Part shown: positions 32,948 through 35,900 of the stretch, one piece after another
Layout of the letters: each line of letters starts with the position of its first letter
Position numbering within the stretch: position 1 is the first letter of the stretch
Program-made: the position numbers
Source of the DNA: Carcharhinus longimanus
Lineage: Eukaryota
Length of the DNA: 64,000 nucleotides
Direction: 5' to 3'
NCBI GenBank assembly: GCA_030264375.1
Contig: JASCQW010000139.1
Location: 6,529,654 to 6,593,653 of the forward strand

Positions 32948-35900
32948 CTATGAAAACAATGGTTTAAAAAAAAAAAGGGTGTCAGTCTTGTGCATGAAAT
33001 GTATTTGAACGGATGTATAAACAGACTTCCTACAACTGCTCTGAATCTCCCTTTGACAGAACCAAGTGCCATATACATTCTCATAATGAGAAATGCTACC
33101 ACTTGATGTTTGGTCAAATGCACAGCCTTGATTGAATTTTAAATATTTTGATCTGACTTGCCAATTAAGACAAAACTACAGCAAAAGTAGCCATGTCTTT
33201 AGATGCATCCACAAGTGGTTTATTCAGGTATGGAATCTAGAAGATACTGATGTAGATCAGTACTTGATCTTTCACATAACCTACCAGCCTTTAAAACTAC
33301 AAACTCTTTAAAATCTACACATCATGATTGCGATGATAGTTCAGATGTTGAAAGATCCAAAAAAGAACTATTCACTAATCTCTTGCTGTGTGCACGTACA
33401 GAAAATATGACTCAAAAATTGCTGAGTGCAAACACTTTGGGCTGCACCAAGGCTCAAACCGAATGGATTGAGCTTTAGTTTATACACCAAAACTGGGTTG
33501 AATTTTAGTTTACATTCCTTTCAAGCATGAGCACACAGTTTGAGCAAAGAATGGGAAAAACAAGCTATGTGCCTGGGAGCAAGAACTACAAAACATTTCT
33601 AGTCTACTCAGCTGTCAAAATAGGTTGAATATCAAACAATGCTTAAATCTTCAATATCAATGCAACATGGCATATGTATTGCTTTGATTCATTAAGGGCC
33701 ATCTCAACACAAATTGGATTCATTTGAAACTCGGGATTAACCACCCTGGAATGTGGGACTTGAATACTAATCTTCATTCCCAAGATGTTATGAGATCTAG
33801 TGAAAACTTCATAGCAATTATTGGTTGAACACAACAAAGGTTAAAAACCCTACATCTACTACAGTAGTGATGGTTTTGAAGCTAGCAGTTACTGCAGGAA
33901 TAGCACTCTGGGATTGGGAAGCAGACAGTGCTCTGATTTATACTAGCTTTAATCCACAGTTTCAGCTCATTAAGCAAATTTACTCTCCTGAACAGATGGA
34001 CTCCAATAAATTCCATAATTTCTTCTTCAAAGCCTAGCAGCATTATTGCTGACACTTGCAACAGTGGAATAATGCTGGGGTCAGAATAGACCAAAGTGAG
34101 CTTTCACAACTTCAGCAGTTTTGCCCTACTCCCATTGTGAAACTAAGAGACCAACATCTGTACCTAAAACAAGGCCATACTGAAAGCACAGTGTTCAAAT
34201 TCCACTGCATCACATCCTGCTTTAGGTAAAAATGAACAAGTAACTTACTCCTGTAGTTCCAACACCACCACACAATGGCCCAAGTCATAAGGACATGTGC
34301 ACTGGTATCCAGTGAGCTGCATAATCTGCAATGGTTTGAGGCCTACCACCCATGGGGCAACTACTGAAAAGAACAGCTGTCTGCATTCCCCACAATTAAT
34401 GAGTTGCAGACTACCTTCCAAATTCATAGTTTAGCTTTTGCTAATGCCAAATGGAGATATCCATGTTAATTCAAGACTAGAGCAATTAAGTGGCCAACTC
34501 CCAACTTACTGCCACTTGTGATTGAAAGCTATGCAGATGTAGCTACATCTGCCACACTAGTCTTGTCTTAGCCTTTTGGCACAAGTACCCACCAAGAAAA
34601 CTACCAAATCTTAGTTCATGATTTGGCATGAAGCCAGATCAGTTCTAAAATCATTGTACTTGCACTCAGCTAGGAGCAAGGTAAAAGCAATTCTAACCAC
34701 ATCTCTCCACCTTGATATGCAAAGACACTAATTTACATCAAAAAGAGCAAGAATTTCCTTAATGTGAACCAAGCCACCATCCGTTAGTATGGGAGTTCAC
34801 AAGTCCAGAGCAAGATGAAAATCCTCTTCAACAGGCCCTAGCAAACAGTTACATTTCTATTTCGATCTTCACTTAAAGCAGACCAAACAACTTTAGAATG
34901 CACTTTACAACAGTGGCTTTCCTTGAAGTTGGGCTGATATCAGCCACATTTCCACAAGTTTTAGATTATATTCTGAGAAGTTACTACAAAATCAAAACAG
35001 CAAGATCATTTTAAGCTGGCTTTACAAATGATATTCTGCCAATGTCTTGCCATATCCAAGAGCACTGTCCTGCACAAATAGGATAGGATATAGTCTTATG
35101 GAAATAAGGGGGAGGGGATGGGGAGGAAAGGCCTGCGCTGCAAACATTTACCTGGTACATGTCCTGCTCATTCCAGATAAGGAACAGCACAAAAAATAAT
35201 AGCTTCCATCAACAGCTGGTCACTCAGTTCAACATTATACAAACCAATAAGCAGTTGAACAAGTTTAACATGGTCATTTAATGCACAGCTGACAGATTAA
35301 TTCAGCAAAACAGATTTAACCCATTTTATATTTTTGTAGAAGCTTTATGGATCTTCAGTTGAGAAAGCAGCTAGGATTTGGTTTTGTTTAAAGCCTATTT
35401 GCTGTTACTTATTACTTGGCACCCTGCAACTGCTTTCTTAAAATCAGTCCAATAACTGACATTAGACCATTATATTGCTAACATTATACTTCCAGTTTAG
35501 AGCAGCTAATTGAGACCAGCTTTGCTTTTCAATCATTTATCGCATCCCAGTTAAAAAGCTGCTTGCAGTCAAGCCTTTGTTTTTCACATGACAAATTGCA
35601 TATTGCAATTACAAGACAGTGAATTGTGTGGGGATTAACAGGTTTAGAAGCAGATATCCAGCTTAGTTATGGCCTTCACAAATTTGAGAATGTTCAAAGT
35701 TTGGACAGGCACCAAGTGCTCATTTAAGATGGAATGTGATGGAGTTTAGAACAAGATATTGCCATGTCCAATTACAGTATTGATGCCCTGTATTGCCCAC
35801 ACAACTGCCAGGAATAATCAGAAAGCAGTAATTACACATTTACATATATAGCTAATGATAGTAAAAATGCAGTTGTTTTCATGGCAAGAGCACAAGACAG

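What the first reader, a model, noticed from the sequence alone, without database searches (positions are those of the whole stretch)
35152..35163. Possibly undescribed 12-nt CLTC microexon (DMYQ) in intron 14
Seen (minus): U-rich tract with TGC, short purine spacer, tandem GAG-CAG acceptor, open 12-nt exon, strong CAG|gtaaat donor, then a C-rich tract. It sits in a long stretch without recognisable repeats. Either acceptor keeps frame (DMYQ or QDMYQ). Established: UGC shortly upstream of the 3' splice site is the SRRM3/4 neural-microexon signature. Inference: a tissue-specific insertion after K764 (human numbering) in the distal leg, adding a tyrosine. I do not know of this exon in other CLTC genes.
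Basis: partly seen in the sequence, partly recalled or inferred. Interest (0 to 1): 0.7.

Follow-up and report, generated by a model that had tools for sequence, protein, structure and literature searches.

The report
Conserved 12-base clathrin heavy-chain microexon
A 12-base mini-exon inside an intron of the clathrin heavy chain gene looks real, because a bird's annotated clathrin carries the same four amino acids at the same spot; it is ancient and already in databases, but apparently unstudied.

Summary
The sequence is as described. On the minus strand, 35163..35152 (GACATGTACCAG, DMYQ) lies in the 3371-nt phase-0 intron between CLTC exon 14 (ends at K764) and exon 15. It has a displaced pyrimidine tract, a UGC at -26, tandem GAG/CAG acceptors and a strong donor.

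The splice signals alone are not beyond chance. Shuffled introns give 3.5 equally good pseudo-microexons on average, against 3 observed.

The coding content settles it. A RefSeq model from a woodpecker (XP_068010910.1, P0251) reads NFLK-DMYQ-EAKL. It differs from its sister isoform only by these four residues. Chance expectation for that peptide at an AG-N12-GT site in this intron is about 9e-6.

So this is most likely a genuine cassette microexon shared by cartilaginous fish and birds. It is rare in databases: 1 of 230 junction-spanning proteins. None of the four shark or ray proteins seen has it. No paper I could search describes it.

It is not unknown, though. Variant numbering in a paper implies that human RefSeq NM_001288653 carries four extra residues somewhere before residue 1217.

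Neural or SRRM3/4 regulation is plausible but untested.

The parts
36319..36482 (-). CLTC exon 14 (164 nt), ending with the codon for K764; donor AAG|GTAGTA
   Evidence: Junction mapping against P0120. The translation aligns to residues 711-764 of PDB clathrin heavy chains 1xi4/6sct/6wcj.
35164..36318 (-). Upstream part of intron 14 (1155 nt). It contains the N gap 36097-36196, which is flanked by a 33-nt inverted repeat.
   Evidence: The N run was left as it stands.
35175..35200 (-). Pyrimidine-rich tract set back from the acceptor, with the only UGC of the last 70 intron bases at 35189..35187 (-26). A possible branch point A lies at 35209 (-46).
   Evidence: The branch point was chosen by eye against the recalled yUnAy consensus; it is inference and was not tested.
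35164..35169 (-). Tandem acceptors: GAG (35169..35167) and CAG (35166..35164). CAG is the likely one in use.
   Evidence: Matrix scores are 2.3 bits (CAG) against -3.3 bits (GAG). The bird isoform has DMYQ, not QDMYQ.
35152..35163 (-). The 12-nt microexon GACATGTACCAG, encoding D M Y Q, in frame between K764 and E765
   Evidence: The identical insert sits at the identical junction in P0251. Chance expectation is 9e-6.
35146..35151 (-). Donor GTAAAT (with exon end: CAG|GTAAAT)
   Evidence: 10.9 bits, above 22 of 27 real donors of the gene.
35100..35131 (-). C-rich / pyrimidine tract 20-50 nt downstream of the donor; role unknown
   Evidence: No GCATG or ACTAAY motif within 150 nt on either side.
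32948..35151 (-). Downstream part of intron 14 (2204 nt)
32822..32947 (-). CLTC exon 15 (126 nt, 42 codons, starts EAKL); acceptor TAG, donor AAG|GTGAGT
   Evidence: 100% identical to many CLTC proteins.

Best explanation
35163..35152 (minus strand) is a genuine alternative cassette microexon of the clathrin heavy chain 1 gene (CLTC). It appears to be shared by cartilaginous fish and birds.

When included, it is spliced between exon 14 and exon 15 through the CAG acceptor and the strong CAG|GTAAAT donor. It adds Asp-Met-Tyr-Gln after K764 in the distal leg without changing the frame. Most transcripts skip it.

How it is recognised (inferred): the strong donor and a distant branch point plus pyrimidine tract with a UGC are the layout reported for microexons that need an activator such as SRRM3/4. 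Inclusion is therefore probably limited to certain tissues.

Shown: the sequence, the frame, the position, and the identity with an annotated bird isoform. Inferred: use of the exon in this species, the tissue, the regulator, and any effect on the clathrin lattice.
For: 1. P0251 (XP_068010910.1, Melanerpes formicivorus isoform X1, 1686 aa) reads NFLK-DMYQ-EAKL. It differs from isoform X2 of the same species (P0247, 1682 aa) in exactly these 4 alignment columns.
2. I found it without asking for DMYQ. The script listed anything other than EAKL after NFLK.
3. DMYQ occurs once in the six frames of the window. Of the 13 AG-N12-GT sites in intron 14, 9.07e-6 are expected to encode it by chance.
4. 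The window's CLTC is closest to shark proteins: 90.2% identity over HSPs, against 83-87% for tetrapods, teleosts, lungfish and lamprey. The match therefore spans cartilaginous fish and birds.
5. Frame and phase fit. The donor is stronger than 22 of 27 real donors.
6. The layout matches what 10.1101/2024.09.17.613571 (passages) gives for SRRM3/4 microexons: a strong 5' site, pyrimidine tract and branch point far from the AG, and a UGC between them.
7. The known 3-nt CLTC microexon is also present in the window at 55271..55269. It scores no better (6.0 + 6.5 bits) than this exon (2.3 + 10.9).
8. A variant quoted as NM_001288653.1 p.(Leu1221del) (PMC10729518) fits a Leu only if that human transcript encodes 4 extra residues before residue 1217. 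In 1675-aa proteins residue 1221 is Val and 1217 is Leu; in P0251 residue 1221 is Leu.
Against: - No transcript evidence from this species was available.
- None of the four named shark or ray CLTC proteins seen has the insert: P0269 Cetorhinus/Carcharodon, P0270 Hemitrygon/Hypanus, P0280 Mustelus, P0281 Heptranchias.
- Of 230 stored proteins spliced across this junction, 227 have no insert, 2 have an unrelated 10-residue insert (sturgeon models) and only 1 has DMYQ. One of the 227 (P0116) is an intron read-through that happens to end in FLK.
- P0251 is a computed RefSeq model and I could not see its supporting reads.
- The CAG acceptor is weak, above only 3 of 28 real acceptors.
- Splice-signal strength is what shuffled introns give.
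- There is no UCUC element upstream of the UGC.
- A search with the intronic reading frame around the exon found nothing in other genomes, so flanking conservation is unknown.
Confidence: 0.88

Rival explanations
1. Chance pseudo-exon: an AG and a GT twelve bases apart in a 3.4-kb intron, with a pyrimidine run and a UGC nearby, never used by the spliceosome.
For: - Signals alone are not unusual. 3 candidates in the real introns reach the finding's summed score, against 4 on the antisense strand and a mean of 3.50 in 200 shuffles.
- With a UGC required, 2 are observed against 1.97 expected.
- 23% of shuffles hold a candidate better on both sites.
- The acceptor is weaker than 25 of 28 real ones.
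- An open frame over 4 codons is the expected outcome by arithmetic, about 0.8; this was not computed in a call.
- Folding shows no special structure (z = 0.09).
Against: The same four residues sit at the same junction in a bird CLTC isoform. The chance expectation for that is 9.07e-6.
Confidence: 0.02
2. Conserved sequence that is no longer spliced in this lineage (a relic of the vertebrate microexon), or a 12-mer kept for some reason other than coding.
For: - The four named shark and ray isoforms seen all lack the insert.
- The acceptor is weak and the pyrimidine tract is 12 nt away from it.
- No expression data could be consulted.
Against: - Both splice dinucleotides, the strong donor, the frame and all four codons are intact. 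An unused 12-mer would not be expected to stay intact over the long separation from birds; that time estimate is recalled, not computed.
- Only 15 of the 1123 members of the cluster that holds the shark proteins were listed, so absence among four proteins is weak evidence.
- The 3-nt microexon, which is real, is seen in only 5 of 40 stored proteins that span its junction. Annotated proteins therefore under-report microexons.
Confidence: 0.08
3. The exon is real, but its inclusion belongs to a programme other than the neural SRRM3/4 one. Examples would be striated muscle (as for CLTC exon 31) or another tissue, or low-level inclusion everywhere.
For: - The other well-studied CLTC cassette exon (21 nt) is muscle-regulated (PMC7480091 passages; PMC8925968 passages).
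- The bird model that carries DMYQ also carries the 7-residue exon-31 insert: its length is 1686 = 1675 + 4 + 7, where P0251 and P0247 differ only by DMYQ and P0247 is 1682 aa.
- There is no UCUC half of the bipartite enhancer described for SRRM3/4 exons.
- A UGC within 45 nt of a candidate acceptor is common by chance.
Against: - The layout is the one described for SRRM3/4-dependent microexons: a strong donor, a weak acceptor context with pyrimidine tract and branch point far from the AG, and a UGC between them. 74-79% of such exons have the UGC.
- No RBFOX (GCATG) or QKI (ACTAAY) motif lies within 150 nt.
- RefSeq models combine exons, so DMYQ and exon 31 appearing together in one model does not show co-expression.
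Confidence: 0.4

Closest known systems
The DMYQ insert of RefSeq XP_068010910.1 (clathrin heavy chain 1 isoform X1, Melanerpes formicivorus; P0251)
   Same: Same gene, same junction (after K764, before EAKL), same four residues, and the same choice of acceptor (DMYQ, not QDMYQ).
   Different: It is a computed protein model from a bird. I could see neither its DNA nor its read support. The window is from a shark-like genome, and the shark and ray proteins I saw lack the insert.
3-nt retina-enriched CLTC microexon (VastDB HsaEX0015816; Ciampi et al., bioRxiv 10.1101/2021.09.08.459463, passages)
   Same: Same gene; a frame-preserving microexon conserved across vertebrates. Its counterpart is in this window at 55271..55269, with UGCs at -33 and -20 and a GTGAGT donor. 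Like DMYQ, it appears in a minority of annotated proteins: 5 of 40.
   Different: It is 3 nt rather than 12. It lies in the N-terminal propeller (K83/A84) rather than the distal leg, and in a phase-1 intron. Its tissue pattern and Srrm3 link are published, whereas nothing is published for DMYQ in the library I could search.
CLTC exon 31 (21 nt, 7 residues, trimerisation domain; PMC7480091, PMC13676984)
   Same: A small in-frame cassette exon of the same gene, conserved. It is present in the window at 19819..19799, encoding VDEIKKK.
   Different: It has a strong acceptor (12.0 bits), is muscle-regulated, and lies at the C-terminal end. The papers treat it as the alternative exon of CLTC and do not mention a 12-nt exon.
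SRRM3/4-dependent neural microexons as a class (10.1101/2024.09.17.613571, passages; PMC12871342, abstract)
   Same: Length 3-27 nt, in frame, strong 5' site, pyrimidine tract and branch point far from the AG, a UGC between them, deep vertebrate conservation.
   Different: There is no UCUC element, and only one UGC, which sits inside the pyrimidine tract rather than after it. Neural inclusion and dependence on SRRM3/4 are untested here.

Membership tests
CLTC (clathrin heavy chain 1) gene | Exons encode clathrin heavy chain with the vertebrate exon structure | tested here: met
   29 colinear coding blocks on the minus strand from 57496 to 22039. Exon 14 aligns to residues 711-764 of PDB 1xi4/6sct/6wcj. 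90% HSP identity to shark CLTC proteins.
Conserved alternative cassette microexon | 3-27 nt, a multiple of 3, open in the frame set by the intron phase, flanked by AG and GT | tested here: met
   12 nt, phase-0 intron, no stop codon, CAG acceptor and GTAAAT donor.
Conserved alternative cassette microexon | The same insert at the same junction in a distant species | tested here: met
   P0251 (bird) has NFLK-DMYQ-EAKL and differs from its sister isoform only by DMYQ. Chance expectation is 9e-6.
Conserved alternative cassette microexon | Both inclusion and skipping seen in transcripts of this species | not testable with these tools
   No RNA-seq or transcript collection of eukaryotes is on hand. 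Skipping is the form seen in all four shark and ray proteins.
Conserved alternative cassette microexon | Raised conservation of the flanking intron | not testable with these tools
   No eukaryotic genome collection is available. A search with the reading frame spanning the exon and its flanks found no candidate.
SRRM3/4-dependent neural microexon | Strong 5' splice site | tested here: met
   10.9 bits, above 22 of 27 real donors of the gene.
SRRM3/4-dependent neural microexon | Weak 3' context, with pyrimidine tract and branch point far from the AG | tested here: met
   The acceptor scores 2.3 bits, above 3 of 28 real acceptors. Pyrimidines make up 22% of -12..-4 and 60% of -45..-21. The branch point at -46 was picked by eye only.
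SRRM3/4-dependent neural microexon | UGC between branch point and AG (present in 74-79% of such exons) | tested here: met
   One UGC at -26. A UGC near a candidate acceptor is also the chance expectation: 1.97 expected against 2 observed.
SRRM3/4-dependent neural microexon | UCU/CUC half of the bipartite enhancer upstream of the UGC | tested here: not met
   0 matches to TCTCT/CTCTC/TCTT/CTTT in the 100 nt upstream, against 8 for the 3-nt CLTC microexon. A run of U is there instead.
SRRM3/4-dependent neural microexon | Inclusion confined to neural or retinal (or endocrine) tissue and tracking SRRM3/4 | not testable with these tools
   No expression data. The supplementary tables of the microexon papers were closed and may list this exon.

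The most novel reading that the evidence does not exclude
A four-residue insertion (DMYQ) in the distal leg of clathrin heavy chain has been kept unchanged since the common ancestor of sharks and birds, and is switched on only in particular cell types. It would then be a third, unstudied axis of clathrin heavy-chain diversity, beside the 3-nt propeller exon and exon 31. It could alter leg-leg contacts in the lattice or add a regulated tyrosine at the end of a helix of the distal-leg zigzag.
Probability: 0.25. Interest if true: 0.65.

Novelty: already known. Interest (0 to 1): 0.4.

Why it matters
Clathrin heavy chain is one of the most conserved proteins of the cell, and its splicing literature deals with very few exons. 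A 2020 paper speaks of 'a single alternatively spliced exon' (PMC7480091 abstract). A 2026 paper lists only microexons 31 and 33 (PMC13676984 passages). A 2021 preprint adds the 3-nt retinal exon.

The exon checked here is a further one. It is identical in peptide between a shark-like genome and a bird, which argues for selection on the protein. It sits in the distal leg, where legs of neighbouring triskelia run alongside each other (recalled, not tested).

The exon is already in sequence databases, so its existence is not new. What is new is the extension of its range to cartilaginous fish. No paper in the library I searched appears to have looked at it.

For the scan there is a methodological point. 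Splice signals did not separate this real exon, or the known 3-nt exon, from decoys. Only comparison with isoforms of other species did.

Tried and rejected
1. Splice-signal statistics. These showed the signals alone are at chance level. Before this led me towards 'chance pseudo-exon', which I then dropped.
2. Search of the protein collection with the 59-residue reading frame that spans the exon and its intron flanks, hoping for the same stretch from other genomes. No candidate was found.
3. Searches with exon 15 (120 of 2378 hits listed) and exon 14 (120 of 1918 listed). None of the listed representatives had DMYQ. Two sturgeon models carry an unrelated 10-residue insert directly before exon 15, most likely an acceptor misplaced in an ab initio model. 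One mole-rat model skips exon 15.
4. A second cluster look-up, asking from other members, returned the same rows. A third, on ten smaller clusters, added 46 direct junctions and no DMYQ.
5. Structure. The AlphaFold model of the bird fragment P0086 with a 13-row alignment is poor: mean pLDDT 57, and 58-68 around the site. It places the junction (residues 600/601 of P0086) at the C-terminal end of helix 592-601, followed by a 2-residue turn. I use this only as a weak hint. The DMYQ isoform is too long for the tool (1686 aa), and I did not send a fragment of it.
6. RNA folding of -100..+60 gave z = 0.09, which is nothing.
7. Paper searches. 'DMYQ' gave 30 papers, of which 15 were listed and none of those is on clathrin. 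'CLTC'+'microexon' gave 7 papers, and 'CLTC'+'microexons'+'VastDB' gave 3. None mentions a 12-nt exon after exon 14.
8. Recursive-splice-site and decoy-exon readings were considered and dropped. The intron is short (3.4 kb), and the coding match explains the site.
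Full report
WHAT IS IN THE SEQUENCE

On the minus strand, the bases at 35163..35152 read GACATGTACCAG (Asp-Met-Tyr-Gln). The following elements surround them:
- A CAG sits directly upstream at 35166..35164, and a GAG lies directly before that at 35169..35167.
- The donor GTAAAT follows at 35151..35146.
- A pyrimidine-rich tract lies upstream at 35200..35175. It holds the only UGC of the last 70 intron bases, at -26. A purine-rich spacer separates it from the acceptor, with 22% pyrimidines in -12..-4.
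- A C-rich tract lies downstream at about 35131..35100.
- I see a possible branch point A at 35209 (-46). That was picked by eye against a recalled consensus and is inference.

THE GENE

The window carries clathrin heavy chain 1 (CLTC) on the minus strand.
- tblastn with two full-length clathrin heavy chains returned by the protein search (P0120 and P0109, about 80% identical to the window's protein) gave 29 colinear coding blocks from 57496 down to 22039. Further 3' exons lie near 14.6 kb and 13.7 kb.
- I fixed 28 exon junctions by phase, length and GT-AG, checking the two exon ends apart.
- Exon 14 is 36482..36319 and ends with the codon of a lysine. Exon 15 is 32947..32822 and starts Glu-Ala-Lys-Leu. 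The intron between them is 3371 nt, phase 0, and includes the N run 36097-36196, which I left as it is.
- Exon 14 aligns without gaps to residues 711-764 of solved clathrin heavy chains (1xi4, 6sct, 6wcj).
- The candidate lies 1155 nt after exon 14 and 2204 nt before exon 15. The 12-nt and the 15-nt versions both keep the frame.
- Among the proteins compared, the window's exons are closest to shark CLTC. HSP identity is 90.2% for Cetorhinus/Carcharodon and Mustelus, 89.6% for rays and 89.3% for Heptranchias, against 83.4-86.7% for lungfish, lamprey, teleosts, frog, turtle, bird and mouse. These percentages are lowered by HSP ends that run into introns; only the ranking is meaningful.

ARE THE SPLICE SIGNALS MORE THAN CHANCE? 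NO

I built weight matrices from the gene's own 27 donors and 28 acceptors. One donor was dropped because it abuts the N run 29143-29242. Real sites were scored leave-one-out.
- The candidate's donor scores 10.9 bits, above 22 of 27 real donors.
- The CAG acceptor scores 2.3 bits, above 3 of 28 real acceptors.
- The GAG acceptor scores -3.3 bits, below all 28.

I then scanned the 28 introns (30,670 nt) for open exons of 3-30 nt in steps of 3.
- Only the finding itself reaches both of its own scores. Three candidates reach its summed score of 13.2.
- The antisense strand of the same introns gives 0 and 4.
- 200 dinucleotide-preserving shuffles give means of 0.29 and 3.50.
- With a UGC also required within 45 nt, the mean is 1.97, against 2 observed.
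- 23% of shuffles hold at least one candidate that beats the finding on both sites.

On these grounds alone I would have called it a chance pseudo-exon. The same matrices score the known 3-nt CLTC microexon (see below) at 6.0 + 6.5 bits, which is lower than the finding. Signal strength therefore cannot tell real microexons from decoys in this gene.

THE DECISIVE EVIDENCE

Exon 15 was searched alone and exon 14 alone. The 4-codon exon is too short to search. The joined model (exon 14 + microexon + exon 15) was not searched.

Among the listed hits, none had an insert of this kind. I then looked into the large 90%-identity clusters of vertebrate CLTC, and a script printed whatever followed NFLK if it was not EAKL.

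One protein stood out: P0251, XP_068010910.1, 'clathrin heavy chain 1 isoform X1 [Melanerpes formicivorus]', 1686 aa.
- It reads NFLK-DMYQ-EAKL, with DMYQ at residues 765-768.
- Aligned with isoform X2 of the same species (P0247, 1682 aa), it differs in exactly 4 columns, D, M, Y and Q.
- The same peptide at the same junction in a bird and in this shark-like genome cannot be coincidence. DMYQ occurs once in the six frames of the 64-kb window. Intron 14 has 13 AG-N12-GT sites, and 9.07e-6 of them are expected to encode DMYQ.
- The bird protein has DMYQ, not QDMYQ, which agrees with the CAG acceptor being the better one.

HOW COMMON IT IS IN DATABASES

- 227 have no insert. One of these, P0116, is an intron read-through that happens to end in FLK.
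- 2 are sturgeon ab initio models with an unrelated 10-residue insert.
- 1 has DMYQ.

The four named shark and ray proteins seen (P0269, P0270, P0280, P0281) lack it. Their only length differences lie near residue 1608. This absence is weak evidence for two reasons. Only 15 of the 1123 members of their cluster were listed, and the listing did not change on a second request. Also, the known 3-nt microexon shows up in only 5 of 40 stored proteins that span its junction.

IS IT ALREADY KNOWN?

In databases, yes. Besides the bird model there is indirect evidence for a curated human transcript.
- I recalled the accession NM_001288653 and used it only as a search word. It appears as a second CLTC transcript in papers.
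- One paper quotes a variant as NM_001288653.1 c.3662_3664del, p.(Leu1221del) (PMC10729518, Table 3 passage).
- In 1675-residue CLTC proteins (mouse, bats, a jay), residue 1221 is Val and residue 1217 is Leu. In the DMYQ-bearing P0251, residue 1221 is Leu.
- That transcript's protein therefore seems to carry 4 extra residues somewhere before residue 1217. This fits the DMYQ exon but does not prove it.
- I fetched and compared no human sequence, and I took no contig for human. Unnamed protein hits could not be attributed, and I did not try.

In print, I found nothing.
- 'DMYQ' gave 30 papers. Of the 15 listed, none is on clathrin.
- 'CLTC' with 'microexon' gave 7 papers.
- 'CLTC', 'microexons' and 'VastDB' gave 3 papers.
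- The CLTC splicing papers I read in passages speak of exon 31, of a mouse and rat exon 33, and of the 3-nt retinal exon only.
- Supplementary tables were closed. Genome-wide microexon lists there may well include this exon.

HOW IT MOST LIKELY WORKS

- Shown: a frame-preserving 12-nt cassette between exons 14 and 15, with intact splice dinucleotides and a strong donor, encoding the same peptide as an annotated bird isoform.
- Inferred: it is skipped by default, because the acceptor is weak and the exon is too short for exon definition. It is included where an activator helps.
- The layout fits the description of SRRM3/4-dependent microexons in 10.1101/2024.09.17.613571 (passages): a strong 5' site, a pyrimidine tract and branch point set back from the AG, and a UGC between them. 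It also fits the extended, accessible branchpoint-to-3'-site region reported in PMC12871342 (abstract).
- Against a simple filing there: the UCUC half of the bipartite enhancer is missing, and the UGC is at chance frequency. The other CLTC cassette exon is muscle-regulated, and the bird model combines DMYQ with the exon-31 insert.
- I put neural or retinal SRRM3/4 control at roughly even odds. No tool here could test it.

STRUCTURAL PLACE

A low-confidence AlphaFold model of the bird fragment P0086 has mean pLDDT 57, and 58-68 around the site. It puts the junction at the C-terminal end of a helix (592-601 in P0086), followed by a two-residue turn and the next helix. An insert there would lengthen a helix end or a turn of the distal-leg zigzag rather than break a helix core. 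This is a hint only. Any role for the tyrosine is speculation.

VERDICT

- The exon is not new to databases. Its apparent reach to cartilaginous fish and the lack of any study I could find are the interesting points.
- Confidence that it is a genuine conserved microexon: 0.88.
- Interest: 0.4.

Noticed in passing
window 55269-55271 (minus strand): A 3-nt exon (ATG) in the phase-1 intron after K83. It is the only AG-AYG-GT match in that 3355-nt intron, with UGCs at -33 and -20 and a GTGAGT donor. Inclusion gives Asp between K83 and A84, which matches the published retina-enriched CLTC microexon. 5 of 40 stored proteins carry D or E there (D in 3, from lungfish, a manakin and a tenrec; E in 2, both lamprey).
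   Followed up: partly
window 19799-19819 (minus strand): A 21-nt exon encoding VDEIKKK, with a strong acceptor (12.0 bits) and a GTGAAA donor. It is the counterpart of CLTC exon 31; the same peptide is in shark isoforms P0280 and P0281.
   Followed up: partly
window 21007-21054 (minus strand): A 48-nt open exon (CTDVTLPAVEGHSFYL) with a CAG acceptor after a good pyrimidine tract and a GTAATG donor, lying between exon 30 and the exon-31 counterpart. 14 of its 16 residues match a 16-residue block present only in Mustelus asterias isoform X1 (P0280) among the four shark and ray proteins. It may be a shark-lineage alternative exon in the trimerisation region.
   Followed up: partly
window 36022-36054 and 36197-36229, around the N run 36097-36196: A perfect 33-nt inverted repeat on the two sides of the gap in intron 14. 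Related copies lie at 39126-39195, 1522-1586 and 56877-56913. It looks like a short repeated element with hairpin ends. The gap was not filled.
   Followed up: no
window 29143-29246 (minus strand): The CLTC exon that starts at 29391 runs up to the N run 29143-29242, so its end and donor site cannot be read. That donor was left out of the splice-site matrix.
   Followed up: no
window 2443-2880 (-), 4099-4609 (+), 36857-37237 (+): Reading frames with reverse-transcriptase-like motifs, which are retroelement fragments inside and beside CLTC introns. One of them (4099-4404) gives a weak RVT_1 match below the Pfam cut-off (26.6 against 29.6 bits); 36857-37237 gave none.
   Followed up: partly
window 3034-3372 (+), 17973-18200 (+), 39498-39641 (+), 59130-59282 (+): A recurring translated motif (…AQWLALLP…) in four plus-strand reading frames, suggesting a dispersed short repeat. 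The one frame tested had no Pfam match.
   Followed up: no
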